A stretch of DNA of 64,000 nt from Candidatus Falkowbacteria bacterium (GTDB taxonomy: Bacteria > Patescibacteriota > Patescibacteriia > CAIXNZ01): positions 64,771 through 128,770 of the forward strand of contig CAVZGV010000003.1 in assembly GCA_963774955.1 (NCBI GenBank), written 5' to 3'. The position numbers and the translations under genes were made by a program. The notes below the pieces were generated by a model. The model saw only the letters and a program-made list of their open reading frames with translations, did no database searches and was not told the origin of the DNA. Within the stretch, counting starts at the first letter, position 1. The number at the start of each line of letters is the position of its first letter. Below, piece by piece: positions 12,590-32,030 of the stretch.

Positions 12590-12782
12590 TATTTATTCAA
12601 CCCCCTCTTTGATTCTCCCCCTAATCATAGGGGGAGAGTGCGGGAATATCGGATTTTCCGTAAACACCCCTCCTTACAAAGGAGGGGATCGGGGGAGGTT
12701 CTCGGATACTTTATCAACTCCCTCCCACCTTCGCTAAAGCTACTGTGGGCTAGCTGTATCTCCCTCTAATCTTAGAGGGAGA
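12590..12782. repeat. GC-rich three-hairpin tail of DUF559 copy 1 (C' 12614-12637, B' 12667-12687, A' 12759-12782)
   Basis: perfect 9-10 bp stems tctccccctaatcatagggggaga, cccctccttacaaaggagggg, tctccctctaatcttagagggaga; homologous to 31851-32011. Confidence 0.75.
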
Positions 12783-13175
12783 TTCCGGAAGTGCAGGCTG
12801 AGTTTTGATTTTACGATCGTTTATTTCCTTACAAAGACAATATAGTTCCTCAACCACTGAATCAATATCTTCAAAGATTTGGTGATTCCAATATCTTTTT
12901 ACAATAATTCCGCAATCTTGTAAATATTTATCCCTGATTTTATCTCTATTAATATTCTTTTGTAGGGTATGAATATCACCGTCTAATTCAATCGCTAATT
13001 TTAATTCAGGGCAATAGAAATCTACTATATAGTATCCAATCCCATATTGCCGACGGAATTTGTATCCTAACTTTTTGTTTCTTAATTCTTTCCAGAGTGT
13101 AACTTCAGCTGGAGTCATTTTTTCCCTTAATATTCTTCTTTTCGTTTTATGCAATTTTAAATTAAACAATTGCAT
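12750..13175 (-). CDS. DUF559 (Vsr/restriction-endonuclease-like fold) domain protein, copy 1
   Basis: 141 aa, signature FRRQY..YIVDFYCPELKLAIELDGDIH; about 65% aa identity to 31458-31889. Confidence 0.75.
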   Translation of the reverse strand: MQLFNLKLHKTKRRILREKMTPAEVTLWKELRNKKLGYKFRRQYGIGYYIVDFYCPELKLAIELDGDIHTLQKNINRDKIRDKYLQDCGIIVKRYWNHQIFEDIDSVVEELYCLCKEINDRKIKTQPALPESPSKIRGRYS

Positions 13176-13263
13176 TTGATTTTTTATTTTGGTTTTAATT
13201 TAGTATCTCTGGGCGCCGCATTTTGAGCAAGCGTATATTGTTTGAGGTTGTTTGGGCATGGGG

Positions 13264-14961
13264 TTATTGAAAAAGTGGAAAATCAGAGGCTTCTGGTACA
13301 CAGGTGCCGCCAACAGATAATATTTTAGAAGTTGGGGTAGAGCATTTTAATCCCGCTCGGCACTCACCATCTCCTCTAGTTGTTACGCTATTACCAACCC
13401 TGGAACAGGAATCACCTATTTCACCTCGAGCGCAGGTATTGGTTCCCGCCGTGTTGCAAATTTTTGTTTTACATTCAGCATTACTGTTACAAGCTGTGCC
13501 TGCATCTCCAGTTGTACAAATATTGCCTAAAGAGGTATTGCAAATCATGGGATCGCCATTGGGAGCTTTGGGGCATTGATCGTTTGAATTACAATAACAA
13601 ACACACAACTTATCGCCTTTTGTTTGATTACTCGGTGCGCAAATGGTTCCGCCGGGAAATTGGAGATGGCCACCTTCAATTGGTTCTATTTTACATTCGT
13701 ACTCACCTTTGTTGCAATATGTTAATTCTTTTACCCCTGTTATTTTATCCATTGTGACACCAACAGCGGCACCTGCCATTCCTAATGTGGCTGTAATTGG
13801 CAATTTTGCATAAGCTGTGACGAGGGAACCTGTTAACCCGCAGGTAAATCCGCTTTGACAAGTAGTACTACTCATTCTGTAAGGATCACAGCGGCCATAG
13901 CCTATTTTGGGCATGCACTTGTTAGCCCCAAATGTTCCAACGCTGGTATTACAGTAATAGCCTTTCTCAGAGGCACAATCTTTATCAGCATCAGCATTAG
14001 CATTATAACAATTTTTTATTGTTTCAAAAGATGCACCACCTAAGCATTCTTGGAAATCAGTACCGACGCAAGGATTACCCACATAGCCAAATTGACAATA
14101 ATTTAAGCCTGCCCAAGGAGCATAGCATCTTAATCCCTTGCAGTCTTCTTTCTCAGTTTTATCAGAGCAGTCTTTAAAAAGTGATTCGGTAATATCAATG
14201 CATTTGCCGTCAGTACATTTGCCGCCGCAACAAAGGCGGTCTTCAGTGCAGGCTTCGCCGTTTTTAGTGCAATCTACACATTCCCAGGAACCGCTATTTT
14301 TACAAACCTTATCAGTACCTAAGGCTGAGCAGTCTTTGCCGGTGCATTTTGTTTTAAATGAATCTTCATAGGCTTCGCCGCATTTTTTAGTTAGGTCATC
14401 TGTGCAGGTGGTATTGTTTTCCAGATCCAAAGTGCGCAATTCGCCGACGCATAAACCAGGGGAGACTAATTTGCCTTTCTTGGCATCACAGTCGGCTTTT
14501 AATAAAAATTCATATTGTTTTTCACCTGTTTGACAGCATTTCGTGCCTTCTATTACTGTAATGGATAATGGCTGGAGCAGAATTGTGCCCGGTGCGACTA
14601 CTTGCAGGATGATAATCGCAAAAAGAGAGATACAGATGCCCAGGACAGCTTTGAAAATAGTATCTTTGGCTTTCTCGATATTTGACGGCGCTGCTCCGGA
14701 AAGTGTCCACAGGACACCGCCATACATGATCATAATAATAGCCAGGGCAATAACAGTGGCCGACCCAAATAAAAAGACAGCTTTGATATATTCGGCAATA
14801 GTTGAACCAGTAATCGGTAAACTGGCCGGTAAATCACCAAAAGGCACCTGTAGATCTAAAAAATCAAGCTGCGCCAGGCAGATAGGCAGGAAGATATTGA
14901 AAACCGTAACAATAATAAAGACAATAATCGGAAAAAGAAAAATTTTAGGCAATTTTGGCAT
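13264..14961 (-). CDS. cysteine-rich (about 60 Cys) surface protein with N-terminal signal peptide + two-TM hairpin (VirB2/T4SS-pilin-like topology)
   Basis: N-terminus MPKLPKIFLF..CLAQ then two helices; about 430-aa domain full of CxxC/GxC spacings; no homolog recognised. Confidence 0.55.
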   Translation of the reverse strand: MPKLPKIFLFPIIVFIIVTVFNIFLPICLAQLDFLDLQVPFGDLPASLPITGSTIAEYIKAVFLFGSATVIALAIIMIMYGGVLWTLSGAAPSNIEKAKDTIFKAVLGICISLFAIIILQVVAPGTILLQPLSITVIEGTKCCQTGEKQYEFLLKADCDAKKGKLVSPGLCVGELRTLDLENNTTCTDDLTKKCGEAYEDSFKTKCTGKDCSALGTDKVCKNSGSWECVDCTKNGEACTEDRLCCGGKCTDGKCIDITESLFKDCSDKTEKEDCKGLRCYAPWAGLNYCQFGYVGNPCVGTDFQECLGGASFETIKNCYNANADADKDCASEKGYYCNTSVGTFGANKCMPKIGYGRCDPYRMSSTTCQSGFTCGLTGSLVTAYAKLPITATLGMAGAAVGVTMDKITGVKELTYCNKGEYECKIEPIEGGHLQFPGGTICAPSNQTKGDKLCVCYCNSNDQCPKAPNGDPMICNTSLGNICTTGDAGTACNSNAECKTKICNTAGTNTCARGEIGDSCSRVGNSVTTRGDGECRAGLKCSTPTSKILSVGGTCVPEASDFPLFQ

Positions 14962-14967
14962 AAGAGG

Positions 14968-15669
14968 TTATTTTTTTAGTTCACTGTCAATGATATTTTT
15001 TATCGTGTAATAATTGATAAAACCTTCAATTTTTTGGTCGTTAACAAAGATAGTTGGCACTGCCGTGACTTCCATATTTATGGCTTCAACCAGATTGCGG
15101 TCTAAGACGGCTACATATTTGCCGGTATTAATACATTGCTGAAATTTTTCCTTATCTAAACTCAAGGTTTGAGCCAGGCTTACATAAGTGGCCGGACCTA
15201 AATTGGTTTGGTTTTGATAAAGTAACTCTTGATACTCCCAGAATTTATTTTGTTCCCAGGCGCAGTAAGCAGCCGAAAGAGACGGCCGGGTTTCCTGATT
15301 AATAGTGACCGGCAGGCCTTTAAATATAAAACGGACCTGACTGGCGTAAATTTTTTCCAAGTTGTTCATGGTTGCCTGAACCGAAGCACAGCTGGGGCAG
15401 GTGAAATCAGTATATTCAAAGACTGTTACCTTGGCATCCGGCTGGCCTTTGATCGGATCATAGCGGGTAACCGCTGGAATTTTTTTCAGGGCCTGTTCAG
15501 ACTGATTTTTGTAATACTGGTCTAGAAAATTATATAATTTCCATTCTTTCCAGTAATAGCCGAGTAAACTATAGGAAATAACGAAAATAACAAGCACCGT
15601 AAAAATCAGAAAATAAATAAAATAAAGCTTTTGCGGGGAAATCAGGATTTTTTTCTTGTCAGTCATCAT
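14968..15669 (-). CDS. membrane-anchored DsbA/BdbD-like thiol:disulfide oxidoreductase
   Basis: N-terminal TM; thioredoxin CxxC motif FTCPSCA; DsbA-like length. Confidence 0.7.
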   Translation of the reverse strand: MMTDKKKILISPQKLYFIYFLIFTVLVIFVISYSLLGYYWKEWKLYNFLDQYYKNQSEQALKKIPAVTRYDPIKGQPDAKVTVFEYTDFTCPSCASVQATMNNLEKIYASQVRFIFKGLPVTINQETRPSLSAAYCAWEQNKFWEYQELLYQNQTNLGPATYVSLAQTLSLDKEKFQQCINTGKYVAVLDRNLVEAINMEVTAVPTIFVNDQKIEGFINYYTIKNIIDSELKK

Positions 15670-15673
15670 AGTT

Positions 15674-16936
15674 TTATAATCTTATTTCTTTAATTTGTCC
15701 GGAATTTTTATCCCAGGCGTAGAGGATGGTTTTATCCTGACTGATCACCATTTTGCCGATTGAAGTATCAAAAAGCGGTTGAGCGATCAATTCCTTACTG
15801 CCAGTCATCAGGTTAATTTTATAAATATTATCAGGCTGGGAATCGGCCATGCTGGGAATAAAGCCGCTGCCCAGATCAAGTGTTTTTGGCACGGCGCAAT
15901 AGATAATATTATCCCCGCCAAAGGTGCATTTATCAGCCCAGGTATCAAGATCAAGTTTTGTTCGTCCGGTACCCAGTAAATCAGGAGTTGAATTAACTAC
16001 CCATAAAGTCGGATTGTATGAAGACGCTGAATTGTATGAGCTGTAAAGTAGTTTATTGCCAGTGGGTGAAAAAACATAGCGGGGATCACGGCCCTCAATG
16101 CGTACGGCTTTGAAATTTTCGCCGTTAAAGCCGATCGGGTAAATCTCAGAACGGTCAGCATCGAGTCCTTTGATAAACATCGCAACATATTGGTTATTAG
16201 GGGACCAGGTAATGGCAACATTTTCATCCTCATCACCCAGGGCTTCAATCTGGCGGTAATTACCTCCGTTGGTATCACTGATGGCTATATATCTGTCTTC
16301 AGGATCAAGTTTCATGGCTTTAAAAGCGATTTTGGAACTATCAGGTGAAAAAGTAAAATCTTTCCAGTGGGTGGGCAGAGTGATGGTGGTCTTTTTATTA
16401 ATATCGTAAATAACATTAGAACCGTCTGGATATTCCATGACTGCTTGTTTGCTGTTTGGCGCCCAGGTTACTTTCTCTACATTTTTAAAAGCAATGTCAG
16501 AAATTAAAGTTTTAGTGCCATCAGGGGTGATATTATAAAAAAATCCGTTATTGGCATTATAATAAACCAAATCCGTACCATTACTGCTTAAAGATGGGGT
16601 TAAGGCCGGATCATTTTCCAACACAGTATATGCTGTAAGGCCGCCATTTGCTTGAAATGAAATCGTAGTGCCCGGAATAGTGGTCACAGGCGGGGGTAGG
16701 CTGGGCAGTGCCGGCGGCAAGAGTGCCGGAGCATTAATAAGGGGAGGGATATAGGCTGGAGGTGGCTGGGTGGGAGGAAATTCAGTCGGTGGAGTCGGAG
16801 TAACCGGCGGTGTTACGGGTGGCGTTGGTTGTGGTAAAAGAGGCCTGAAAAATAAATAAAAAATAGCAAAGCCTATAAGCACAGCAACGGCAATAAAAAG
16901 TATAATCAGTAAAACTTTTTTTGTTCGATCAGACAT
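15674..16936 (-). CDS. membrane-anchored TolB-like/PD40 beta-propeller protein with Pro-rich linker
   Basis: N-terminal TM, PTPPVTPPVTPTPP linker, repeated beta-propeller blades. Confidence 0.5.
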   Translation of the reverse strand: MSDRTKKVLLIILFIAVAVLIGFAIFYLFFRPLLPQPTPPVTPPVTPTPPTEFPPTQPPPAYIPPLINAPALLPPALPSLPPPVTTIPGTTISFQANGGLTAYTVLENDPALTPSLSSNGTDLVYYNANNGFFYNITPDGTKTLISDIAFKNVEKVTWAPNSKQAVMEYPDGSNVIYDINKKTTITLPTHWKDFTFSPDSSKIAFKAMKLDPEDRYIAISDTNGGNYRQIEALGDEDENVAITWSPNNQYVAMFIKGLDADRSEIYPIGFNGENFKAVRIEGRDPRYVFSPTGNKLLYSSYNSASSYNPTLWVVNSTPDLLGTGRTKLDLDTWADKCTFGGDNIIYCAVPKTLDLGSGFIPSMADSQPDNIYKINLMTGSKELIAQPLFDTSIGKMVISQDKTILYAWDKNSGQIKEIRL

Positions 16937-17001
16937 ATTTTTTGGTTAATAATATATTAGTAAATAAAAGGCGGTAAAAATTATTAATTATTTTAAAATC
17001 T

Positions 17002-18393
17002 TTATGATTGCGGTGCTATTAATAACAGGAATAACGAAATAACAATTACCGGTGAGAGCAGGATCATTAAACAGATTATAAGTAACATCAGGATTATAGC
17101 GTCTAAGATGAGGAAAACAGCAATTTCAGCAATTTCAAAAAGCATCCACATGATTCTATCAGCCTTTTTATCAAAAGAATCATTGCCATCACTTATTTTT
17201 TCAGATTCTCCCGAGCCTCCTGATGTGCCGCCACCTCCTCCGGCAGCACCGCCACCTCCTCCGGCAGCACCGCCAGCTCCTCCGGCAGCGCCTCCAGCAC
17301 CTCCAGCAGCTCCGGCAGCACCGCCAGCTCCTTCGGCAGCTATATTTAGATATTCTTTCCATTCATGACCAAAACGGCAGACATATTTAGAATGTGCAAA
17401 ATATTTAACCAGAAAATGTATATTAATATAGATAATTCCTACGATAGGACCGAGAATTGTTTCCAGGTTAATTATGAGTGCCCAGGCATCACTTAAAAAT
17501 TGAGCTGATACTTTTTGCCCGATCATTATAATTACATCTTGGGCCACTTTCTTGGCAGCTTTAGCTGCTTCTCTGATCTTCATTTGAGAGGCTGCTCTTT
17601 GCATTCTCTGCAAATCTCTTTGCATGGCTTTTTCCGGATCTTCTTCCTGTTCTTTATCCTTGCCTTTATCCTCTGCTCCTTTTTTCTTATCTTTAGATTG
17701 GTCTTCTTCCCCTTGTTTTTCCTGGCCTCCTTGGCCCTGTATTAATTTAGTTTGATCAGACGGACCTGCTTCTTCAGGCGGTTCCGCCCCTGGTCCGGCT
17801 GAGGTTGGCTGCCGTTGCGCTACTCTGAAATCACGCGCTTGTTGATTTTCCTGTTGCTGTTCTTCTGGTTTTTCCGTGTTTTTATCTTGATCCGAGCTTT
17901 GTTGTTCCGGTTCTTTGCCCCCAGTTTGAGTTTGATCAGCAGGTTGCTGGTTACCGGTTTCGGCTTGGTTTTGTTCTGTAGTATTTTTATCTTGATCCGG
18001 ACCTTGTTGTTCCGGTTCTTTGCTCTCAGCTTGAGTTTGATCAGCAGGTTGCTGATTACCAGTTTCAGCTTGCGCATTACCATTAGTGGCCTGGCCTTGG
18101 TTTGCCGATGGAGCTCCTGACTTTTTCGGGGCAGTCATATTACCAGCTTGTTCTTGAGGCCCTGTTTTTTTCCCTTCCGCTTCATTAGCCAGGTTACCAG
18201 GTTCGTCTGGCGATCCTGGTTCTTGTGGTTGGCCATTTTTTCCCTTAGGTTTGCTTTGCGGAGTCTCATCATCATCAAGTTTTTCCGGTTTGGGGATATC
18301 TCCGGATATTTTAACTTGTCTTTTCTGATCACGTAAATTACGGCCCTGATCTTTTTCTTGGTTATTGGCTGGTGAAGTATTTGAATCGACCAT
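17002..18393 (-). CDS. hypothetical membrane protein with long disordered Q/E/K/G-rich N-terminal region, internal 35-aa tandem duplication and Gly/Ala repeat between TM helices
   Basis: 105-bp direct repeat x2 at 17879-18088; GAGGAAGAAGGAGG stretch; C-terminal hydrophobic helices. Confidence 0.5.
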   Translation of the reverse strand: MVDSNTSPANNQEKDQGRNLRDQKRQVKISGDIPKPEKLDDDETPQSKPKGKNGQPQEPGSPDEPGNLANEAEGKKTGPQEQAGNMTAPKKSGAPSANQGQATNGNAQAETGNQQPADQTQAESKEPEQQGPDQDKNTTEQNQAETGNQQPADQTQTGGKEPEQQSSDQDKNTEKPEEQQQENQQARDFRVAQRQPTSAGPGAEPPEEAGPSDQTKLIQGQGGQEKQGEEDQSKDKKKGAEDKGKDKEQEEDPEKAMQRDLQRMQRAASQMKIREAAKAAKKVAQDVIIMIGQKVSAQFLSDAWALIINLETILGPIVGIIYINIHFLVKYFAHSKYVCRFGHEWKEYLNIAAEGAGGAAGAAGGAGGAAGGAGGAAGGGGGAAGGGGGTSGGSGESEKISDGNDSFDKKADRIMWMLFEIAEIAVFLILDAIILMLLIICLMILLSPVIVISLFLLLIAPQS

Positions 18394-18415
18394 TTGAAAA
18401 AATTAATTCCTAAGC

Positions 18416-19198
18416 TTAAGCGCTTTTTACTCTTTTTAAATCCTGATATAAAGCAAAAGGATAAACTAGTATCAATAGCATGATAATAATAACAAAAATA
18501 TAGCTTAGTGCCGGTCCGATTGCCGGCAGTTTAAATAGTAAACCGGAAATGTTGTTTAAGATTAAGACCATAATGGCCAGCACAAAAATTTTAAAGGCCA
18601 GGCTGGAGAGGCTGCTTTTACTTAAATGGTACGTGTGTTTAATGGCATTTAGCGGGTATTCATCCTTTTCAATTATGATATAAATGCTAAAGATCAGTGT
18701 CGAGGAAAGCAGTAAGATCAAAATATAACCCAGGATCAGAGAAAGTATGCCTAAAACAGCTTGGTTGGCGATAAAGAAGATAATGGCAGCATAAATCGGC
18801 AGGGAAAAGATAACAAACAAAATGGAAATGATAATGGCGAGGAACAGAAAGTTTAAAAAATGTTTTTTGACCGACTTAATATTTTCTCTGAATTTCAATT
18901 TGGGATTCATTAAAGTATAAATAATAACGATTTGGGCAACTACGGCAATAAGAAAATAAATAAGATAAGTGCTTAAAGCCCAGAGAATGCGGGAGACTAT
19001 TATATTATCAACAGTAATGACTTTAAAGGTAACAAGTAAATAATAAATATAGGTCAAGAGCAGATTGGCAGCTAAAATCAGAACTGAAATAAAAATAAAA
19101 CTTAGCAGTAAATTCAGCCAGCTTTGCTTGACGATTTCCAGACATTTAAGAAATAGCTGGCTGGTCGGCATTAATTTTACGGAGTTATTGGTTGGCAT
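18416..19198 (-). CDS. hypothetical polytopic membrane protein
   Basis: about 6 predicted TM helices; in cluster with lemA-htpX. Confidence 0.5.
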   Translation of the reverse strand: MPTNNSVKLMPTSQLFLKCLEIVKQSWLNLLLSFIFISVLILAANLLLTYIYYLLVTFKVITVDNIIVSRILWALSTYLIYFLIAVVAQIVIIYTLMNPKLKFRENIKSVKKHFLNFLFLAIIISILFVIFSLPIYAAIIFFIANQAVLGILSLILGYILILLLSSTLIFSIYIIIEKDEYPLNAIKHTYHLSKSSLSSLAFKIFVLAIMVLILNNISGLLFKLPAIGPALSYIFVIIIMLLILVYPFALYQDLKRVKSA

Positions 19199-19282
19199 CT
19201 TTAAGAAAGATTAAGAATTAAAAGTTGAAATTAAATATTTTGTTTATTTTTTTCTATCATAAAAAAGCCCCTGAAAATTTAT

Positions 19283-20209: not shown

Positions 20210-20222
20210 TGGTCATATGCTA

Positions 20223-20774: not shown

Positions 20775-21011
20775 AATTTTTTGCTTTAATTAATTAAATT
20801 TAATATACTTAATTCAGCTATTTTATAAGGGCAGGTGTTTTAGCAAATATAAACAAAACTGGCCAAAATAAAACAGCCTGAAATTATGTCCTCATGAGTT
20901 AATTATAGTATGAAAATTGTGCTAATGTCAAAAGAAATTTATTATTTTTAATTAAATTTTCCCCAGTCAGCAATATTTTGCTGTAATTAGGGAAGATTTT
21001 GGAGAAAAAAT

Positions 21012-23596: not shown

Positions 23597-23610
23597 ATGA
23601 AGGCTGAAGA

Positions 23611-24647: not shown

Positions 24648-24674
24648 AAAATATAAAAAGGTTTTACAAATAAT

Positions 24675-25478
24675 ATGAAGATCGGTATTTTTGATTCAGG
24701 CTTGGGTGGCCTGATTATTTTAAAAGAAATCATAAAAAAACTGCCGCAGTATGATTACATTTACCTGGGCGATAATGCGCGGACGCCGTATGGCAACCGC
24801 TCGCAGGAGGTAATCTATAAGTTTACAGAACAGGCAGTTGATTTTTTGTTTAAACAAAATTGCCAGCTGGTAATTATTGCCTGTAATACGGCTTCGGCTG
24901 AAGCTTTGCGTAAAATTCAGCAGGAGTGGCTGCCCAAGAATTATCCTGACAGGCGAGTGCTGGGAGTTATCAGACCAGTAGTAGAACAAGCGGTTAAAAC
25001 TGCGAAAAAGAAAATCGGGGTCATCGGCACCAAAGGCACGGTGGCTTCGCAGGCCTATATTCATGAAATTACCAAATTGAACCCTAAGCTTGAAGTTTTA
25101 CAGCAGGCCTGTCCGCTTTTGGTGCCTTTGGTTGAAGAAGGCTGGCAAAAATCAGATGTGACTAAACGAGTTTTACGAACATATTTGAAACCATTAAAAT
25201 CAGCAAAAGTAGATACTTTAATTTTGGGCTGTACCCATTATCCGATTTTATATAAAGAAATTCAGGGCATAATGGGCCCAAGAACTAAAGTTTTGCATTC
25301 CGGTGAAATCGTGGCTGAGTCTTTGGTTGATTATTTGGGGCGACATCCGGAAATTGAAACTAAATTAGATAAAAACTCTCAAAATATTTTTTACGTGACT
25401 GATTTGTCGGCGCATTACCAGATATTGGGGGAGGGCTGGTTTGGGCAGGGGATTAAGTTTGAAAAAGTTAGTTTATAA
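24675..25478 (+). CDS. murI: glutamate racemase
   Basis: IFDSGLGGL, ACNTAS, GCTHYP motifs. Confidence 0.9.
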   Translation: MKIGIFDSGLGGLIILKEIIKKLPQYDYIYLGDNARTPYGNRSQEVIYKFTEQAVDFLFKQNCQLVIIACNTASAEALRKIQQEWLPKNYPDRRVLGVIRPVVEQAVKTAKKKIGVIGTKGTVASQAYIHEITKLNPKLEVLQQACPLLVPLVEEGWQKSDVTKRVLRTYLKPLKSAKVDTLILGCTHYPILYKEIQGIMGPRTKVLHSGEIVAESLVDYLGRHPEIETKLDKNSQNIFYVTDLSAHYQILGEGWFGQGIKFEKVSL

Positions 25479-25574
25479 GGTTCTATTAGGTTAGATGAGG
25501 TTTTATAAAGTTATATAAGGTTGCGATGAGGAAATAAAAAATCCCGGACCAGGTGGCCGGGATTTTGGGTTTTA

Positions 25575-26213
25575 TCAGAGTTCCTTCTGGCCTCGAATTT
25601 CTTCTCTTTCGAGGTATAACTCTTTTAGTTTTTGCCGCAGCTTTTCATTATTAATATTTCTGCCTTTTAAGCGACGGGTAAGCTTGGCAATTATTTGATT
25701 GACTCGTCCGCCGGAAATATCAAATTTTCGTCCGATTTCCTCGTATGAATATTCCCGGTGCTCCGGATTTAATCCGAATTTGAGTCTTATCATTTCTTCT
25801 TCTTTCGGCGAAAATTGAGCAATTGACTGCTCAATGGTTTCCAGAAGTTCTGTTTCCACTATCTCCAGATACGGTTCTGAAACAGTAGGCAAGCATTTGA
25901 GCCTTGATATGTCTGTGGCACTCAGTTCATGCAGAGACAATTCAATCGCTCTTTTAGGAGATTCAAGCTGATAGAGCTTCAGGGGAAAAAGTAGGTCAAT
26001 ATTAATTTTGAGAATTTCTGACAACCTGACGCAAAACGGCAGCCAGTTGCCTCGTTTGCCAATGGGTGATTTTTTCAGGTTGATCAAATCTCCAATATAG
26101 GTCATATGCAGGCCGCATTGCCGGCTAAAGGCGGCAATTGAAGCGTAGTTATCATAAATAGCATGATAAAGAACATTATTTCGGACTCTGATTTCCACTC
26201 GTACTTCTTCCAT
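25575..26213 (-). CDS. sigma-70 region 3/4-containing HTH protein (no recognisable region 2)
   Basis: SYEEIGRKFDISGGRVNQIIAKLTRRLK region-4 HTH. Confidence 0.5.
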   Translation of the reverse strand: MEEVRVEIRVRNNVLYHAIYDNYASIAAFSRQCGLHMTYIGDLINLKKSPIGKRGNWLPFCVRLSEILKINIDLLFPLKLYQLESPKRAIELSLHELSATDISRLKCLPTVSEPYLEIVETELLETIEQSIAQFSPKEEEMIRLKFGLNPEHREYSYEEIGRKFDISGGRVNQIIAKLTRRLKGRNINNEKLRQKLKELYLEREEIRGQKEL

Positions 26214-26305
26214 CTTTTTTCTCCTTTGTCAGAGTAGACCTTGGCGACACATTAAATCAATTTAGCAATGATTTTGAGATTTGTCAATAATAAATTTAAG
26301 ATAAT

Positions 26306-26339
26306 ATAAAAGAAAAGGAGCTCCGCAACGCGGAGCTCC
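26306..26339 (-). terminator. intrinsic terminator for gene 26355-28208 (palindrome ggagctccgc-aac-gcggagctcc + T-run on minus strand)
   Basis: perfect 10-bp stem then cttttctttt on minus strand. Confidence 0.7.
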
Positions 26340-26354
26340 TTTGATAATTTGTGG

Positions 26355-28208
26355 CTATGGCTTGTCGCTGAGCAGTTGCTCCAGTTGTTTCAGTTGCTCA
26401 GGAGTCAGGTTGTCCAGCCGTCGTTTGACTTCTTCGTTGTCTGTGTTGGTTTCGGCTTCTGCTTGCGCCGGTACGGTGATAGCATCGCTGGCTTGCTGAA
26501 TTTCGGATTTGGTAAATTCCACATCCGGCAGGTCAAAGCTTGCCATCTGGATAATGCCTTCGTTTGTTTCCAGGTAGGTAATCTTGGCTTGGTCATTGTC
26601 GCGGGCAATAGCCAGTTCTTCGGAGATTTTACTGGTACCGGAAAAAAGCTTGTCAGGCATTTGGTCCAGCCAAACGTAGTATATGGTTACTCCGTTTTGG
26701 CTGTCAGCTGCGATGCGTTTAATTTTGCCTTCAGCTTTTTTTACGTACTTTTCATTACTGGGAGCCATGGTATTGCCGTTGGAAGCCAGTAGCTTGCGAT
26801 ACTCGGCCAGTAATTCCGTTTTGTCCTGTCCGAATGCAACTCGTGAAGACGAGGCTTCGACCATGGCAATGCGCTGGAAAACATGCTGGTCCGAAAGAAT
26901 CGGTACCACCCAGGTAAGGGTGCCGTAAATGTTATAAAGGATTGGATCAGTCGGATGCCATTTGGCAGATTCTGCGCCTAAACCGCTGGAAACAGCCTGG
27001 ATTACCGCTGTTTCATTGGCGCCGTTGATGCGGTAGAAATATGATTTGGCGTTGCGAGAGTTGATCATCAGAAATCCGACCAAGGCGTTATCGCTGGCAG
27101 AAGATGAGGTCATGCCGGTAAACCAGTATGGCTGGCCGTCATTACCGTAGACTAGCCACATATCCAGTTTGCCTGCGACTTCTGTGGGAATCATCACATC
27201 CTGTTCCGACCAGATTGAATTCCACCAGCCGCGGGTGTATTTGCCCCGCCACTTGGCATACGAAAAAGCGATTTTCTGAGGGATGATTCGATCCACCCAG
27301 ACAGGAGCTTCTTCTGGTTTGTATTTTTCAATCTCTCCGGTTTCCGCGTTGACCAGAATTACTCCGGTAACCTTGTCGCCGGTGTAATGATGGATTAGGT
27401 CGTATTTGGTGATGACCCAATAAGGGTTCAATTCATCATCAACTTCAAAGGTAAAATCGGTCAGGCCGGTAAACTGGTAACCTTTGGCATAGACATAACG
27501 TCTGAGGTTGTCGCTAAACCAGCCGGTGGTGACATATTTCAATTTGCGCTGTTCAATCCTGACGGGTCGGTTGCGATCCTCGGCATTGACCATGATAAAA
27601 CCATAGGTTTCCCCATAGCTTTGCCAGGAGGCAAAACCATTGAATTCCAGGGGAGCAACCCACCACAGTTCGTCTTTGACGCGCTGGATATGGAGTGTGC
27701 CCACATGGAAACGGCTGCCGATATTGCCGGGGATTTTGCCGATGTCCTGATTGCCCAACCATTCGGCGTGTTCCTGGTCAATGATCCTGATGTGCTTGGT
27801 ATCAATCGGCTGAAAATCATCCTGCCAGGATTTATCTTCCACCTTGCCGATCATATCCCGCAGATTGACTGACTGGAACATACCCATGGAAAGGATACCC
27901 CGGATCAAAACCAGAACCAGCAGAACCACGAAAAGATAAGTGCCGCCGGGAAGCTCCTCCGAGGTTATCCCGGTGATTAATAGATTGATACTCATGGTCA
28001 GCAAAATCATGAAACTCAGACCCCAGAACGGTCCATAAAGACCGGGGCAGACGGCATAAACAATGCCTACCCATAAGATCAGGGCTACAACTGAACGGAT
28101 GATCCAACCCAAAAGCCATTTGCCATGACCGTCTTCTTTCAGTTGATTGAAATTGGGGTTAAACCCGCCGACGACGCTGACGATAAAAGCCACCCAAAGA
28201 TAACTCAT
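26355..28208 (-). CDS. hypothetical large membrane protein (N-terminal polytopic region + about 450-aa soluble domain); codon usage more GC-rich than neighbours
   Basis: 617-aa intact ORF, 4-5 N-terminal TM helices. Confidence 0.55.
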   Translation of the reverse strand: MSYLWVAFIVSVVGGFNPNFNQLKEDGHGKWLLGWIIRSVVALILWVGIVYAVCPGLYGPFWGLSFMILLTMSINLLITGITSEELPGGTYLFVVLLVLVLIRGILSMGMFQSVNLRDMIGKVEDKSWQDDFQPIDTKHIRIIDQEHAEWLGNQDIGKIPGNIGSRFHVGTLHIQRVKDELWWVAPLEFNGFASWQSYGETYGFIMVNAEDRNRPVRIEQRKLKYVTTGWFSDNLRRYVYAKGYQFTGLTDFTFEVDDELNPYWVITKYDLIHHYTGDKVTGVILVNAETGEIEKYKPEEAPVWVDRIIPQKIAFSYAKWRGKYTRGWWNSIWSEQDVMIPTEVAGKLDMWLVYGNDGQPYWFTGMTSSSASDNALVGFLMINSRNAKSYFYRINGANETAVIQAVSSGLGAESAKWHPTDPILYNIYGTLTWVVPILSDQHVFQRIAMVEASSSRVAFGQDKTELLAEYRKLLASNGNTMAPSNEKYVKKAEGKIKRIAADSQNGVTIYYVWLDQMPDKLFSGTSKISEELAIARDNDQAKITYLETNEGIIQMASFDLPDVEFTKSEIQQASDAITVPAQAEAETNTDNEEVKRRLDNLTPEQLKQLEQLLSDKP

Positions 28209-28684
28209 TTTCTTTACTCCTTTTCTTCTGTTTTTGAGGTACGTTTTTGTACTAAAAAGTACAAATAGCCATAAAAATTTACGACACCTTAGTATATAAT
28301 TTTAAAAGATTTTTGTCAATAAAAAAGACGACCTGCTATTTTGGGTCGTCTAGGTAAAACATCACTGAGATTTTTCAGGATTTGAATTCAAAATGGAATT
28401 AGAGTTTTTATCCTTGCGGATTAGGATAAGACTAAAAGCAAAGGGAGTTTGTCTTTTAGATTATCCATCGGGACGGCTGATTGTTACATATCCAGGCCAT
28501 TGGCCTTGGTCTTGTAAACTGATCAACCAAACTCTTGGAACAAGCATTTGGCAATGCCTGATCCTCTTAACCCGACGTTGGTTTTTATAGCCAGAAACCA
28601 GCATTCTTGTCTGACTATTTTGAGATAACTCAATTAAAAACCAACAATTTTAGTAATAATAACTTATCATATTATTGAATTTTT

Positions 28685-29128
28685 GTCAAGATTAATAAAA
28701 AAGCGGTCAGACAGGGTCTGACCGCGTAATGGTTTGGTTCGGATTCCGGGAGGCGCTGGGCGTCTTCCGCTTATAAGGCCAATTGGTCTTACTGGAATCC
28801 GATTTTTAAAGCGACCAGTGCCGCTTTAAATACAATATTAAGTGTTTCTGGGCGTCTCAAAAGCCAAGATGCTTGAGGATACGGCTAAAAGCGGATTTGC
28901 GCAAACCCACTCAAGCTTCTCCATCGGGCAGAGCAATCTTTCCTGATCGGAGGCAAATATCCTTAGAAAAGATTGCCAACACTTGGCCAGCGCTTCCTCG
29001 AGGCGGGGCTGCCTACCCCAAGCGCCAACCTTCAAACCCGACGTCAGATCCGGAGGCCGAACATTTGCCTCACTTACGCGACCGCATTTACGGCAGTCCA
29101 TGACCTGACAATTTAAATTTCGATTATG
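28685..29128 (-). ncRNA. candidate structured ncRNA of about 440 nt, unidentified class
   Basis: minus-strand sigma70 promoter TTGACA-17-TAATAT (plus coords 29134-29162), GC-rich body, intrinsic terminator gcggtcagaccctgtctgaccgc+TTTTTT at 28688-28716; only short, GC-codon-biased ORFs inside. Confidence 0.5.
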
Positions 29129-29133
29129 CTGCC

Positions 29134-29162
29134 ATATTAGCAAAAATAATAGGTAATGTCAA
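29134..29162 (-). promoter_or_regulatory. sigma70-type promoter (TTGACA, 17-nt spacer, TAATAT) driving the candidate ncRNA
   Basis: revcomp of 29157-29162 = TTGACA; revcomp of 29134-29139 = TAATAT. Confidence 0.6.
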
Positions 29163-29231
29163 TGGTTTGCCTTTTATTTTATTTTGAGATAAAATTAGAG
29201 TATTCAATTTATTATTTAACTTTTCAATACA

Positions 29232-30339
29232 ATGATTACAACTGTATTAATTTTTCTGATTGTTTTAGGTATTTTAGTGCTGGTTCACGAACTGGGACAT
29301 TTTTGCACTGCCAAATTAATGGGCATGAAGATTTACGAATTTGGTATCGGCTTTCCACCGAAAATCTGGAGCAAAAAGGGTAAAGACGGGGTGATTTACT
29401 CGATTAATTCTATACCTTTGGGCGGTTTTGTTAATTTAAGGGAAACAGAATCAGAGGCTTCTGATCCCAATAGTTTTATCAATAAGAAACCATGGAAAAG
29501 GGCCGTCGTTATTTTAGCCGGCGTAGCCATGAATTTTTTATTATGCGTTGTTTTGCTTTCATTTGGTTTTATGTTTGGCCTACCGCAGTCAGTGGATCAG
29601 GATGCGCTTAATTCCGGAATTGTAAAAGATTATAAAATTCAGGTGGTGACTGTTTTAGATGATAAACCAGCCAAAACTGCAGGAGTTGAAATCGGCGATG
29701 TGCTGCTGGCTGTTGATGACCAGAAATATTGCCAGTGTTAAGGATTTGGTTGTGTATACCAGTACTAAAATAGGGACGAAAGTTAATTTTAAATTTTTGC
29801 ATGAAAAAGAGGAAGTAACCAAGGAAATTGAAATTGCAGAATTGGAAAAAGGCAAGGGCGGTATTGGTGTTGGCTTGGTGGAAACCGGGATTGTTTCTTA
29901 TCCGGTTCATTTGGCTGTTTGGCACGGTGTGAAATTAACTTTGGCGCTAACTAAGGAATTTATTTTTGCTTTTGCCAATATTATAAAGAATTTAGTCATT
30001 GGCCAGCCAATCGGCGTCCAGGTTTCCGGTCCGGTCGGTATTGCGGTTTTAACCGGTCAGGTAGCCAAATTGGGTATAATTTATTTACTGCAATTTACGG
30101 CTTTACTCTCATTAAATTTGGCGATTATCAATGCGATACCGTTTCCGGCTTTTGACGGCGGTCATTTAGTCTTTATTATAATTGAAAAAATTCGCCGCAA
30201 GCCTGTTGATAAGAAAATTGAGGGTATAATTCATACTATTGGGTTTTCTTTGTTAATGCTATTGATTATTGTTATTACTTTTCAGGATATTTTAAGGTAT
30301 AGTCATTTTTTTAGTAATTTTTTCAGTAATTTGATTTAA
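29232..30339 (+). CDS. rseP: RseP-like site-2 protease (M50), interrupted by one frameshift near 29710-29740
   Basis: HELGHFCTAK HExxH, PDZ segment, C-terminal NLAIINAIPFPAFDGGH; two overlapping ORFs in frames 0 and 1 rejoin as ...VLLAVDDQK|IASVKDLVVY. Confidence 0.75.
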
Positions 30340-30409
30340 ACGGCTTAGTGCTATAGGGCTTTGAGCTTAGAGCTTTATGCCCAAAGTTTATAGCTTATAG
30401 CAAAAAAAT

Positions 30410-31450
30410 ATGGAATTAAAATTCAAAGAACTCAAAGAGCAGGCCTTGAAGGAGATTCAGGCGATTCGCAATTCGGAAGAGTGGCAGCAGATTGAGAATA
30501 AGTATTTTTCCAGAAAAAGCGGGGAATTGGCCAAGCTTTTGAAAGATCTCAAGGATGTTTCCGAGGATTTGCGTCCGAAAATTGGCGCGGTTGCCAATGA
30601 AATAAAAAATGAAATCAGTAAGGCTTTGGAACAAAAAAAAGTCAGATTTGAATTTGGATATTGATGAGGATTTGGAACATGATTTTATTGATGTAACTTT
30701 AGAAATTGAAAAATATAAGCTTGGTCATTTGCATCCTTTGACTCAGGTGCAAATGGAACTGGAAGATATTTTTAAATCCATGGGTTTTATGATTTTGGAC
30801 GGTCCGGAGCTGGAATCGGATTATTATAATTTTGAAGCTTTAAATCTTCCGTCTTGGCATCCGGCTCGTGATATGCAGGATACTTTTTATATTGATCCCA
30901 AGACTGTGAACGGCACGGAAAATTTGCTTATGCGCACTCAAACTTCACCGGTACAAGTGCGGGCAATGCAAAAATATGGCGCGCCTTTGCGTTGTGTGAT
31001 GCCCGGCCGTTGTTTTCGTAATGAAGCCACTGATGTGCGTCATGAACATACTTTTTATCAGATGGAAGGCTTGATGATTGATAAAAATATTTCTTTTAAT
31101 GATATGTGCGGTGTTTTTGGAAACAGTGGCTAAAGAATTATACGGAGATGACACTAAATTAAGATTGCGACCAAAATATTATCCTTTTGTGGAGCCGGGT
31201 GTTAACGGAGAAGTGACTTGTTTTTTGTGCCATGGCAAAGGTTGTAAATTATGCAAACAGACCGGCTGGCTGGAAATCGTCGGCGCGGGCATGGTTCATC
31301 CCAATGTTTTGAAAGCCGGCAATGTTGACCCCAATAAATATCAGGGTTTTGCTTTTGGTTTTGGCTTAACCGGTTGGTGATGCTGAAATACAATATTGAC
31401 GATGCCAGGTTATTGCAGAGTGGGGATTTACGTTTCTTAAACCAATTTTA
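30410..31450 (+). CDS. pheS: phenylalanine--tRNA ligase alpha subunit, interrupted by three single-nt frameshifts (about 30640, about 31100, about 31378)
   Basis: class II motifs across four frames: N-terminal helix, [28 protein letters not shown]-terminal [20 protein letters not shown]. Confidence 0.8.
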
Positions 31451-31457
31451 GATTATA

Positions 31458-31889
31458 ATGCAGTTGTATAATATAAAAGTGCATAAAGAGAAAAGAAGGA
31501 TTTTAAGAAACACAATGACACCCGCTGAAGTTGCGCTTTGGGTAGAATTGAAAAATGAAAAATTAGGATATAAATTTCGACGACAATATGGAGTCGGTCA
31601 CTATATAATTGATTTTTATTGTCCTCAACTTAAATTCGCCATTGAATTGGATGGCGATGTTCATGCCATTGATAGTGTTCATAAAAAAGATCTGATTAGG
31701 GATAAATTTTTGGAAGAATGCGGGATTACCATGAAAAGATTTTGGAATCACGAGATATTTGAGGATATAAATTCAGTTTTGGAGGTGATAGTTAATCTTT
31801 GTCAACAAAAAACCGATTGTAATTCTAAGGTACAGCCGTCTCATCCGGAGTCTCCCTCTAAGATTAGAGGGAGATACAGAGGGAGTTGA
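31458..31889 (+). CDS. DUF559 (Vsr/restriction-endonuclease-like fold) domain protein, copy 2, inserted between pheS and pheT
   Basis: 143 aa; FRRQY..YIIDFYCPQLKFAIELDGDVH; paralog of 12750-13175 in inverted orientation. Confidence 0.75.
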   Translation: MQLYNIKVHKEKRRILRNTMTPAEVALWVELKNEKLGYKFRRQYGVGHYIIDFYCPQLKFAIELDGDVHAIDSVHKKDLIRDKFLEECGITMKRFWNHEIFEDINSVLEVIVNLCQQKTDCNSKVQPSHPESPSKIRGRYRGS

Positions 31890-32030
31890 TCGGGTAACCC
31901 GAATTCCCCGAATACCCCGAGAACCTCCCCCGAACCCCTCCTTTGTAAGGAGGGGAGATTGCGGGGAATGCCGTGACCACTAAGGATTCTCCCCCTTAGA
32001 CAAGGGGGAGACAAAGAGGGGGGGGTAAAT
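31851..32030. repeat. GC-rich three-hairpin tail of DUF559 copy 2 (A 31851-31874, B 31935-31955, C 31988-32011)
   Basis: A tctccctctaagattagagggaga overlaps ORF 3' end (encodes SPSKIRGRY); B identical to copy-1 B'; spacers also conserved. Confidence 0.75.

What the first reader, a model, noticed from the sequence alone, without database searches (positions are those of the whole stretch)
12590..32030. Two inverted paralogous DUF559 nuclease-fold genes with conserved three-hairpin GC-rich 3' tails; one copy splits pheS from pheT
ORFs 12750-13175 (minus strand) and 31458-31889 (plus strand) share about 65% protein identity. Each is followed by about 170 nt carrying three perfect 9-10 bp hairpins (A, B, C) whose sequences and spacers are conserved. 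Hairpin A overlaps the last codons of the ORF. This nuclease-plus-structured-3'-RNA layout resembles the TnpB/IscB omega-RNA arrangement and homing-endonuclease cassettes. Copy 2 lies exactly between pheS and pheT, which normally form one operon. Copy 1 lies immediately upstream of radA. The two copies are inverted and 18.3 kb apart, so they could mediate inversion. The adjacent genes (radA; rseP and pheS) are frameshifted.
Basis: partly seen in the sequence, partly recalled or inferred. Interest (0 to 1): 0.7.

Follow-up and report, generated by a model that had tools for sequence, protein, structure and literature searches.

The report
DUF559 nuclease cassettes with triplex repeats
Two old insertions in a tiny Parcubacteria genome each carry a small Vsr-fold nuclease gene followed by three copies of a DNA repeat of the kind known to fold into a triple helix (E. 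coli BoxC/PIT/TM class), and the same gene-repeat pairing recurs across many bacterial phyla, which suggests this nuclease family is the missing partner of those long-unexplained repeats.

Summary
Two inverted DUF559 paralogues (66% aa identity) each carry a conserved 3' tail with three perfect hairpins. One lies between pheS and pheT, the other in front of radA.

The hairpins are more than hairpins. Each is a pyrimidine arm, a loop, a purine arm, a short spacer (3-5 nt here) and a G-rich tail that mirrors the purine arm. This is the intrastrand purine-motif triplex class published as BoxC/PIT/TM. It folds in DNA, not RNA.

In 83 DUF559 loci from many phyla, 78 have such a unit within 200 nt and 44 have one on both sides, a density 65 times background. 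E. coli ycjD and Neisseria NGO0050 show the same linkage. I found no paper reporting it.

Both window copies are insertions. The radA copy is flanked by a 52-nt duplication of the radA start. Most relatives have an empty pheS-pheT junction, and the closest hosts carry different cargo there.

The copies are old and vertically inherited, and the protein is under purifying selection.

An omega-RNA-like reading is not supported, and nothing here supports inversion between the copies. The neighbouring frameshifts look like homopolymer assembly errors.

Best reading: a REP/RAYT-like or homing-like nuclease-plus-repeat cassette. The nuclease's action on the repeats is inferred, not shown.

The parts
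31458..31889 (+). DUF559 copy 2 ORF, 143 aa. Public annotation starts it at M20. The last 13 codons are the translation of unit A.
   Evidence: C-terminal residues 125-141 have pLDDT below 50
31851..31886 (+). Unit A of copy 2: Y-arm TCTCCCTCT (31851-59), loop AAGATT, R-arm AGAGGGAGA (31866-74), spacer TAC, mirror tail AGAGGGAGT (31878-86). The stop codon TGA follows.
31922..31955 (-). Unit B of copy 2, with its G-rich side on the minus strand. On the + strand it reads lead AACCTCCCCC (31922-31), spacer GAA, hairpin CCCCTCCTT-TGT-AAGGAGGGG (31935-55).
31988..32023 (+). Unit C of copy 2: hairpin TCTCCCCCT-TAGACA-AGGGGGAGA (31988-32011), spacer CAA, tail AGAGGGGGG (32015-23; 8 of 9 positions fit the mirror rule).
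32054..32088 (+). Conserved right-end segment ATTTTCAAACGATTATCGCGAAAATTAATAATATT, just before the pheT ATG. It is also present before pheT in L001 and before nif3 in L097, so it travels with the cassette. It contains a weak promoter-like site, TTCAAA-17-AATAAT.
12750..13175 (-). DUF559 copy 1 ORF, 141 aa.
12717..12782 (-). Unit A of copy 1: hairpin 12759-12782, spacer TACAG, a 30-nt nested GC hairpin inserted in the spacer (12724-12753; CCCAC...GTGGG, related to repeats at 52295, 52449 and 53550; it creates the TAG stop), then tail AGGGAGT (12717-12723).
12667..12700 (+). Unit B of copy 1, with its G-rich side on the + strand. Read on the minus strand: lead AACCTCCCCC (12700-12691), spacer GAT, hairpin 12687-12667.
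12600..12637 (-). Unit C of copy 1: hairpin 12614-12637, spacer ATCAA, tail AGAGGGGGT (12608-12600).
12533..12584 (-). Downstream copy of the 52-nt direct repeat. It is the functional 5' end of radA (ATG at 12583; [17 protein letters not shown]...).
13200..13260 (-). Upstream copy of the repeat. It is the displaced original radA start, now a 19-codon stub ([19 protein letters not shown]), 4 nt after the stop of the upstream 565-aa gene. The same stub is present in L002 and L003.
30410..31451 (+). pheS, left neighbour of copy 2. It changes frame three times at or near short base runs. Its stop lies 6 nt before the DUF559 ATG.
32094..34538 (+). pheT, right neighbour of copy 2, intact.

Best explanation
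Each locus is an insertion-derived cassette. It couples a DUF559/YcjD-family nuclease gene (minimal Vsr-type PD-(D/E)XK fold) to its own DNA repeats.

Each repeat has five parts: pyrimidine arm, loop, purine arm, short spacer, and a G/A or G/T tail that mirrors the purine arm. In one DNA strand this can fold into a hairpin with a third strand laid on it, giving G*G-C, A*A-T and T*A-T triplets. It is the same class as the E. coli BoxC/PIT/TM repeats, for which triplex folding has been shown in vitro. The repeats therefore act at the DNA level, not as RNA.

The canonical family layout is [hairpin>tail]-gene-[tail<hairpin], and gene-less pairs of units are scattered elsewhere in those genomes. 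This parallels REP/REPIN repeats and their RAYT transposase.

In this window the two cassettes entered the radA start and the pheS|pheT junction in an ancestor of this Parcubacteria lineage. They have been inherited vertically since, and they have kept an active-looking nuclease and their 3' units. No upstream unit was found at either copy.

Shown: the anatomy, the linkage across phyla, the insertion status, the age, and purifying selection.

Inferred: the nuclease recognises or nicks the folded units, and this drives copying of the cassette and of solo units and causes the local rearrangements seen around them.
For: (1) Anatomy in the window.

(2) Mirror rule. Of 188 pyrimidine-first hairpins in 85 loci, 63% have a flank matching the mirror of the purine arm at 90% or better. 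The figure is 12% for a direct-repeat rule and 9% when flanks are taken from units with a different arm. Among 134 distinct units (chosen for at least 80% fit to the rule), arm G pairs with tail G in 98% of positions and arm A with tail A or T in 93%. A 3-nt spacer occurs in 83 of the 134, and the signal collapses when the register is shifted. Units A and C differ by a concerted change in all three strands. The spacer can hold a nested hairpin, as in copy 1.

(3) Linkage. 78 of 83 DUF559 loci from CPR, Gammaproteobacteria, Bacteroidota, Chloroflexota, Planctomycetota and others have a unit within 200 nt, and 44 have one on both sides. Density is 65 times background, and no purine-first hairpins were found. 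Tails point toward the gene 32:11 upstream and 35:16 downstream, and L024 has a 42/42-nt inverted repeat.

(4) Reciprocal control. In 397 kb of PheT-centred CPR DNA, 9 of 16 units lie within 350 nt of the only 3 DUF559 genes.

(5) Model organisms. The published TM_ECO no. 9 lies about 170 nt downstream of E. coli ycjD. The homologue of NGO0050 (PDB 3HRL) in N. gonorrhoeae and a Synechocystis plasmid copy are flanked by units too.

(6) Literature. PMC4666352 reports that TM_ECO forms a triplex by CD and NMR, is linked to rearrangements and has no known mobility gene, and it states that purine triplexes do not form in RNA.

(7) Insertion status. The radA start is duplicated. Empty pheS-pheT junctions exist, cargo at that junction varies, and the DUF559 allele in L097 is discordant: 59-64% identity although host PheT is 72-77% identical.

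(8) Gene-less unit pairs occur between housekeeping genes.

(9) Protein. dN/dS is 0.13-0.18 and the conserved ELDGxxH core is intact. The fold matches 3HRL, I-Bth0305I, Vsr and TnsA.
Against: - No biochemical link between DUF559 and the units exists. The linkage is correlative.
- In this window there are no solo units and no unit upstream of either gene.
- Both sites are orthologous in the nearest relatives, so nothing shows recent mobility here.
- No target-site duplication or defined cleavage site was found for canonical cassettes.
- Hairpins were detected by requiring perfect stems, so stem covariation is partly circular. The tail test and the enrichment test are not.
- Holder et al. found in-vivo footprint evidence for the triplex only indirectly.
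- Few relatives are present in viral contigs: 11 of 2.9 million.
Confidence: 0.6

Rival explanations
1. DUF559 is a free-standing homing endonuclease whose recognition or insertion site is the triplex repeat. Under this view the repeats are pre-existing host elements that are the target and not part of the mobile unit. The gene is found next to them because it lands in or beside them.
For: - Gene-less unit pairs with the same outer layout exist and could be empty sites.
- The fold is close to the homing endonuclease I-Bth0305I.
- There is presence/absence and allele replacement at one site.
- E. coli has 23 units but one ycjD.
Against: - Unit sequence travels with the gene across phyla and differs between DUF559 clades.
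- In this window no units exist away from the genes, so there is no pool of targets.
- The pheS|pheT and radA sites in relatives without DUF559 carry no unit.
Confidence: 0.18
2. DUF559 is an ordinary resident Vsr-like repair nickase acting on T:G mismatches, as proposed for Caulobacter VsrA. The GC-rich hairpins are generic intergenic repeats, terminators or mRNA stabilisers that happen to lie nearby.
For: - Both positions are conserved in relatives and the protein is under purifying selection.
- A DUF559 protein behaves as a Vsr-like factor in Caulobacter (PMC12907096).
Against: - Enrichment of one specific motif class beside DUF559 is 65-fold in many phyla.
- Units lie on both sides in inverted orientation.
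- None of the units has a T-run, so none qualifies as an intrinsic terminator.
- PIT elements showed no promoter or terminator activity according to PMC4666352.
- The score against the Vsr equivalog model is far below its cut-off, 22 against 98 bits.
- The junctions are variable and carry a duplicated gene end.
Confidence: 0.12
3. A nuclease with a structured 3' RNA, as in the TnpB/IscB omega-RNA arrangement. The tail would be transcribed and would guide or regulate the nuclease.
For: The tail is conserved, starts inside the ORF and folds well.
Against: - The protein has no RuvC or HNH domain and no RNA-binding domain. It is a single 100-aa Vsr-fold core.
- No Rfam hit.
- Units lie on both flanks and on both strands.
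- The number and order of units vary between orthologues.
- The arm-tail mirror symmetry has no RNA explanation, and purine triplexes are excluded in RNA.
Confidence: 0.03
4. A defence or toxin module. DUF559 would be a stand-alone effector nuclease, as in the C-terminal domains of Hhe and ProA, and the repeats would be unrelated.
For: Weak similarity to the nuclease domains of Hhe, ProA, DpdF and methyl-directed restriction enzymes. One plasmid copy lies next to BREX pglX.
Against: - Only domain-level hits far below family cut-offs.
- No partner genes in the window.
- The position is between housekeeping genes.
- It does not explain the repeat linkage.
Confidence: 0.04

Closest known systems
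BoxC / PIT elements / TM_ECO intrastrand triplex motifs (Bergler and Bachellier, 1990s; Hoyne & Maher 2000, 2002; Holder et al. 2015, PMC4666352)
   Same: - Three-block layout: pyrimidine arm, 3-6 nt loop, purine arm, about 3-nt loop, mirror G-rich block (class II purine motif).
- Loops vary while blocks are conserved.
- Units occur singly or as inverted pairs, are intergenic, and sit at rearrangement-prone loci.
- One published E. coli copy (no. 9) lies beside ycjD.
   Different: - Arm sequences differ: TCTCCCTCT / CCCCTCCTT here against the CCCTCNCCC consensus.
- The units here are found only next to the nuclease gene.
- Unit A overlaps the ORF end.
- The papers I could search name no associated gene.
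REP / REPIN repeats with their RAYT (TnpA-REP) transposase
   Same: - A vertically inherited, single- or low-copy nuclease gene flanked by copies of a short palindromic repeat.
- That repeat also occurs as dispersed inverted doublets.
- Long persistence in lineages.
- Probable action on folded single-stranded DNA.
   Different: - The enzyme is a Vsr-type PD-(D/E)XK nuclease, not a Y1 HUH transposase.
- The repeat carries a third, mirror block (triplex former) in place of a GTAG guide.
- No activity has been shown.
I-Bth0305I (EDxHD, Vsr-like homing endonuclease) and free-standing homing endonuclease genes of phages
   Same: - Same nuclease fold (Foldseek TM 0.70 to 3R3P).
- A small gene inserted at a conserved site between or in essential genes.
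- Presence/absence polymorphism and allele replacement at one site.
   Different: - Not inside an intron or intein.
- No added DNA-binding domain.
- Flanked by its own repeats.
- Rare in viral contigs.
- Homing has not been demonstrated.
Vsr very-short-patch repair endonuclease / Caulobacter VsrA
   Same: Fold and conserved acidic/His core. Caulobacter VsrA contains a DUF559 domain.
   Different: - Scores far below the Vsr family cut-off.
- I did not look for a cytosine methyltransferase gene in the window.
- The repeat linkage is not a feature of Vsr.
Rickettsia palindromic elements (RPE) and other MITEs
   Same: Short palindromic units that can insert in frame into protein genes without destroying them. 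This is seen for these units inside pheT of several CPR relatives.
   Different: RPEs have no known cognate gene, are longer, and have no triplex layout.
TnpB / IscB with omega-RNA
   Same: A small nuclease gene followed by a conserved structured non-coding segment that starts within the ORF end.
   Different: - Different fold.
- No RNA family and no guide.
- Units lie on both sides and on both strands.
- The motif is specific to DNA.

Membership tests
DUF559 (Pfam PF04480) / YcjD family | Match to the family HMM above the curated cut-off | tested here: met
   106 and 104 bits against a cut-off of 20.6. PRK09767 (YcjD) is matched at 64-67 bits, below its equivalog cut-off of 218, so these are family members but not YcjD orthologues.
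DUF559 (Pfam PF04480) / YcjD family | Vsr-type PD-(D/E)XK fold with a conserved acidic/His core | tested here: met
   Profile match to PDB 3HRL at E 5e-29 over residues 18-120. AF2 model has pLDDT 80.5. Foldseek finds 3HRL, 3R3P, 1VSR and TnsA. E63, D65, G66, H69 and D78 are invariant in 20 sequences including both copies.
Vsr mismatch endonuclease (TIGR00632) | Score above the family cut-off | tested here: not met
   22 bits against a cut-off of 97.85.
Vsr mismatch endonuclease (TIGR00632) | Functional or genetic link to a cytosine-5 methyltransferase | not tested
   I did not search the window for a methyltransferase gene. The rest of the genome is not available.
Intrastrand triplex motif (BoxC / PIT / TM class) | Three consecutive blocks: Y-arm, complementary R-arm, and a third block that mirrors the R-arm (G>G, A>A/T), with short loops | tested here: met
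   All six window units fit: A 9/9, C 9/9 and 8/9, B on the opposite strand. Family-wide test.
Intrastrand triplex motif (BoxC / PIT / TM class) | Match to the TM_ECO consensus CCCTCNCCC-N3-6-GGGNGAGGG-N3-GGGNGAGGG | tested here: not met
   The window arms are TCTCCCTCT, CCCCTCCTT and TCTCCCCCT. Same class, different sequence family. Units with the E. coli arms do occur in other DUF559 loci (L054, L042).
Intrastrand triplex motif (BoxC / PIT / TM class) | Physical formation of a triple helix | not testable with these tools
   Shown by CD and NMR for TM_ECO oligonucleotides only (PMC4666352). ViennaRNA cannot model triplets.
REP/REPIN-RAYT system | Y1 HUH (IS200/IS605-like) transposase | tested here: not met
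   The protein is DUF559 / PD-(D/E)XK.
REP/REPIN-RAYT system | Nuclease gene flanked by the repeat, plus dispersed inverted doublets of the repeat in the same genomes | tested here: inconclusive
   Met in the wider family. In this window units are on the 3' side only and there are no dispersed copies in 64 kb. The rest of the genome was not seen.
Homing endonuclease cassette | Presence/absence polymorphism at a fixed site in otherwise syntenic relatives | tested here: met
   The pheS-pheT gap is 5-60 nt in most relatives. The closest hosts carry DUF559 of two clades, or nif3, or other genes.
Homing endonuclease cassette | The enzyme cleaves the empty allele at or near the insertion point | not testable with these tools
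   Needs biochemistry.
TIR transposon / MITE | Terminal inverted repeats | tested here: inconclusive
   Present in many canonical loci (L024 42/42 nt, L032, L021, L054). Absent at the two window copies, which have no upstream unit.
TIR transposon / MITE | Short target-site duplication | tested here: not met
   No short duplication was seen. Instead there are 52-70-nt duplications of gene ends at copy 1 and in L001.
TnpB/IscB-type nuclease with omega-RNA | RuvC (and HNH) nuclease with an adjacent structured guide RNA | tested here: not met
   No such domain. No RNA family. The layout is incompatible.
Intrinsic transcription terminator | GC hairpin followed by a T-run | tested here: not met
   None of the six units is called as a terminator. 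The sequences following them are G-rich.

The most novel reading that the evidence does not exclude
DUF559/YcjD proteins are structure-specific nucleases whose natural substrate is the folded intrastrand triplex repeat (BoxC/PIT/TM). Together they would form a widespread, previously unrecognised class of mobile or semi-domesticated elements, a PD-(D/E)XK counterpart of REP-RAYT. This would explain how these repeats spread, why their loci are rearrangement-prone, and what this large domain of unknown function does.
Probability: 0.4. Interest if true: 0.85.

Novelty: new variant of a known kind. Interest (0 to 1): 0.72.

Why it matters
The BoxC/PIT/TM triplex repeats have been known since the 1990s. 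They were shown to fold in vitro and were linked to genome instability, but the published work found no gene that could make or move them. DUF559 is a very large family of unknown function, with a solved structure (3HRL) and an E. coli member (ycjD).

A tight physical linkage of the two across phyla gives both a testable function. It offers E. coli K-12 as a ready experimental system. It would also add a second enzyme class to the short list of nuclease-plus-repeat systems that persist in bacterial genomes.

For this genome it explains why a conserved operon (pheS-pheT) is split and why radA has a duplicated start.

Tried and rejected
- **Literature.** Searches for DUF559, GxxExxY, the motif sequences, and Patescibacteria plus endonuclease gave nothing on the linkage. 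Only the search for intramolecular triplex / mirror repeat found the key paper. Later papers add nothing on a partner gene.
- **Source contig.** Look-up by the exact annotated protein failed. The source genome was not among the 80 genome-contig loci, so a whole-genome census was not possible.
- **Rfam.** Scans at gathering and at permissive thresholds gave only tRNAs, one TPP riboswitch and noise.
- **G-quadruplex reading of the G-rich arm plus tail.** Rejected. Units A and C have only two GGG runs.
- **Direct-repeat reading of the tail.** Rejected (12% against 63%).
- **Terminator reading.** Rejected.
- **A pheS 3'-end remnant downstream of copy 2.** Rejected. That segment is a conserved cassette right end, also found before nif3 in L097.
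- **Truncated unit tail at the upstream junction of copy 1, joined by CAG microhomology.** It fits L002 (CAG|AGGGACT) but not W1 or L003, so I keep it only as a weak lead.
- **Gene conversion between the two loci**, suspected from L003 being closer to L001 at the DNA level. The protein tree still groups copies by locus, so this is not needed.
- **Viral origin.** Only 11 relatives in viral contigs.
- **Defence system.** Only weak domain hits.

Full report
**1. What is in the sequence**

The two ORFs exist as described. ORF 12750-13175 (minus strand) is 141 aa and ORF 31458-31889 (plus strand) is 143 aa. They share 66% identity. Both are clear DUF559 proteins, related to E. coli YcjD.

Each ORF is followed by three perfect GC-rich hairpins. 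A scan of the whole window finds these six members of the family and no others. The first hairpin lies within the last codons of the ORF.

The window comes from a Candidatus Parcubacteria (CPR) genome assembled as a 565,549-bp contig. The neighbours are radA, rseP, pheS and pheT.

**2. The hairpins are triplex-type units**

After each hairpin comes a short spacer and then a G-rich block that is the mirror image of the purine arm, reversed but not complemented.

| Unit | Sequence |
|---|---|
| A | TCTCCCTCT-aagatt-AGAGGGAGA-tac-AGAGGGAGT |
| C | TCTCCCCCT-...-AGGGGGAGA-atcaa-AGAGGGGGT |
| B | the same design on the other strand: AACCTCCCCC-gaw-CCCCTCCTT-tgt-AAGGAGGGG |

Units A and C differ by one concerted change in all three blocks.

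I tested the rule on 188 pyrimidine-first hairpins from 85 loci:
- 63% have a flank matching the mirror of the arm at 90% or better, with G to G and A to A or T.
- The figure is 12% for a direct-repeat rule.
- It is 9% when flanks are taken from units with a different arm.

In 134 distinct units that fit the rule at 80% or better, arm G faces tail G in 98% of positions and arm A faces A or T in 93%. The spacer is 3 nt in 83 units. Shifting the register destroys the signal.

These are exactly the triplets of an antiparallel purine-motif triple helix.

The spacer can hold a nested GC hairpin in several loci. Copy 1 has such an insertion at 12724-12753. This is the main difference between the two tails, and it creates the earlier stop codon of copy 1.

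**3. The motif is already known; its gene partner apparently is not**

Holder et al. 2015 (PMC4666352) describe the same design as the E. coli BoxC / PIT / TM_ECO repeat, with consensus CCCTCNCCC-N3-6-GGGNGAGGG-N3-GGGNGAGGG. According to that paper:
- It forms a stable intrastrand triplex by CD and NMR.
- It occurs 23 times in K-12, five times as inverted pairs.
- It is found in more than 260 genomes.
- It marks rearrangement-prone loci.
- Purine-motif triplexes do not form in RNA.
- PIT elements showed no promoter or terminator activity.
- No mobility function was ever found near these motifs.

The paper does not mention ycjD, DUF559 or any endonuclease. Yet its TM_ECO no. 9 (1,351,239-1,351,204) lies about 170 nt downstream of ycjD (1,351,407-1,351,760), on the same strand. 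A degenerate unit overlaps the ycjD stop codon, as unit A does here. A 39-nt duplicate of the ycjD 3' end lies between the two.

I found no later paper making the link. My access to the literature is limited to the held library.

**4. The linkage is general**

A scan of one genome per species with the DUF559 alignment found more than 595 relatives. The 80 best come from CPR, Gammaproteobacteria, Bacteroidota, Chloroflexota, Planctomycetota, Acidobacteriota, Ignavibacteria and others.

- Of the 83 fetched DUF559 loci (these 80 plus L001-L003), 78 have a unit within 200 nt and 44 have one on both sides.
- Unit density is 65 times that of the rest of the loci.
- Purine-first hairpins were never seen, and ordinary mixed hairpins are evenly spread.
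- Upstream units point their tail toward the gene 32:11. Downstream units do so 35:16.
- The typical layout is therefore [hairpin>tail]-gene-[tail<hairpin], a terminal inverted repeat. It is perfect over 42 nt in L024.

As a reciprocal control I used 80 loci chosen through PheT, 397 kb of CPR DNA. They hold 16 units, and 9 of these lie within 350 nt of the only three DUF559 genes present.

The N. gonorrhoeae homologue of NGO0050 (the solved structure 3HRL), a Synechocystis plasmid copy and a few viral contigs show the same flanks.

Gene-less pairs of units occur between housekeeping genes. Single units are even inserted in frame inside pheT in some lineages.

**5. Both window copies are insertions, but old ones**

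*Copy 1.* It is bracketed by a 52-nt direct repeat (94% identity), extending to about 61 nt. The repeat is the start of radA. The upstream copy sits 4 nt after the preceding gene's stop and is now a 19-codon stub. The downstream copy continues into radA. The same arrangement is present in two relatives, L002 and L003.

*Copy 2.* Most CPR relatives have pheS and pheT 5-60 nt apart. The five closest hosts have 64-77% PheT identity and all differ at this junction:

| Host | Content between pheS and pheT |
|---|---|
| window | DUF559 + units A, B, C |
| L001 / L096 | hairpin insert with a 70-nt duplicate of the pheS end, a 129-aa ORF, DUF559, four units |
| L097 | DUF559 + A, B, then nif3 |
| L098 | two unrelated ORFs |
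| L099 | nif3 only |

In other lineages the same junction holds a GIY-YIG gene with 43-nt inverted repeats, a GxxExxY/PDDEXK_3 gene, or a gene that I read by eye as a four-helix-bundle (23S rRNA IVS protein-like) gene.

*Phylogeny.* DUF559 copies group by locus into a pheS-pheT clade and a radA clade. The two paralogues therefore predate these species. The L097 copy falls in a distant clade (59-64% identity) although its host is as close as L001's. This points to an independent arrival or a replacement at the same site.

*Right end.* A conserved 35-nt segment precedes the next gene's ATG whether that gene is pheT or nif3. It contains a weak promoter-like site.

**6. State of the genes**

dN/dS is 0.13-0.18 in all comparisons. 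The conserved core (E63, D65, G66, H69, D78...) is intact in both copies.

The model is confident for residues 10-124 and disordered for the unit-encoded C-terminus. The nearest structures are 3HRL, the homing endonuclease I-Bth0305I, PvuRts1I/AbaSI, Vsr and TnsA.

Synonymous divergence between the two copies is 1.24, yet the arms and tails of their units are essentially identical. The units are therefore under constraint or are homogenised.

**7.

- An RNA-guided or omega-RNA-like arrangement is not supported: wrong fold, no RNA family, units on both flanks and strands, and a DNA-only motif.
- The units are not intrinsic terminators.
- Nothing here supports inversion between the copies. Relatives keep both flanks of each copy, and the longest exact match between the copies is about 29 nt.
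- The frameshifts in pheS (three), rseP and radA look like assembly errors. The pheS sites examined lie at or near short base runs, and the genes are otherwise conserved.

**8. How it most likely works**

*Shown:* a Vsr-fold nuclease gene and triplex-forming DNA units form one heritable module that has entered conserved sites.

*Inferred:* the nuclease recognises or nicks the folded unit, or a duplex containing it. The resulting breaks would be repaired by copying, which spreads the cassette and gene-less unit pairs. Such breaks would also produce the local rearrangements seen here:
- gene-end duplications of 39-70 nt;
- nested hairpin insertions;
- extra small ORFs;
- variable unit number.

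The 52-nt repeats around copy 1 could also allow precise loss of the cassette.

The closest analogy is REP/REPIN with RAYT, with a different enzyme and a three-stranded repeat. A homing-endonuclease variant, in which the units are the target, cannot be excluded.

**9. Verdict**

The RNA part and the frameshift part are not, and I found no evidence for inversion.

The motif class is known, and so is the protein family as a family of unknown function. Their linkage appears to be new. It would make two old questions directly testable, in E. coli among other organisms.

Noticed in passing
window 63411-63851 (+): A 146-aa PDDEXK_3 protein (PF13366, E 4e-27; by my recollection the family NCBI names GxxExxY) overlaps the end of queH (62849-63433). 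It is another small stand-alone nuclease of the kind found at the pheS-pheT junction in other CPR lineages.
   Followed up: partly
window 52295-52331, 52449-52485, 53550-53586; also 12724-12753: A second GC-rich hairpin family (..CCTCCGCTAAAGCTxCGGAGG..). One copy is nested in the spacer of unit A of copy 1.
   Followed up: partly
window 7145-7183 and 10329-10367; L001 3398-3440: A third hairpin family (TCCGCC-nnn-GGCGGA, doubled). In L001 a copy is inserted after pheS and is flanked by a 70-nt direct repeat (90% identity) of the pheS 3' end, whose differences from the functional copy look synonymous by eye.
   Followed up: partly
window 58469-58911: Repeated GC-rich segments (58469/58590 and 58540/58886) lie between three tRNA genes (58648-58720, 58802-58884, 58966-59038).
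   Followed up: no
window 29726, 30640, about 31100, about 31380; radA between 11702 and about 11850; possibly 45774-47626: Frame changes occur in rseP, pheS (three times) and radA. The pheS sites examined lie at or near short base runs. A further run of overlapping same-strand ORFs (a DUF4012 gene?) lies at 45774-47626. These suggest indel errors of a long-read assembly across the window.
   Followed up: partly
window 17202-17340 and 17876-18072 (inside ORF 17002-18393, minus strand): A 9/12/21-nt periodic GC-rich repeat and a 105-nt tandem duplication (89% identity) lie inside one 463-aa ORF. This is a low-complexity repeat protein.
   Followed up: no
L118 3856-3878, L122 3853-3875, L158 2726-2748, L114 2751-2771: Triplex-type units are inserted in frame inside pheT coding sequence (for example ...NSPHPSPLLGKERGRRL...) without breaking the ORF. 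This resembles Rickettsia palindromic elements.
   Followed up: partly
L109 2030-2075 and 2385-2425: A 97-aa GIY-YIG gene between pheS and pheT is flanked by about 43-nt inverted repeats (TTGTCATTGCGAGC..GAAGCAATCTCCGGT), each with a nested hairpin. Another small nuclease family therefore has its own repeat type.
   Followed up: partly
L095 (E. coli K-12 NC_000913.3) 1,351,204-1,351,420: A degenerate unit overlaps the ycjD stop. A 39-nt duplicate of the ycjD 3' end and the published TM_ECO no. 9 lie in the ycjD-fabI spacer. No repeat feature is annotated there in the record.
   Followed up: yes
L001 3543-3932 and L003 3699-3950: Extra small ORFs of 129 aa and 83 aa, with no significant family match, are inserted directly upstream of the DUF559 gene in two relatives. 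They may be partner or passenger genes.
   Followed up: partly
L176 (N. gonorrhoeae) 1162-1296 and 1443-1577: Tandem arrays of inverted unit pairs lie downstream of the NGO0050 homologue. The record is a 2.17-Mb replicon labelled as a plasmid in PLSDB.
   Followed up: no
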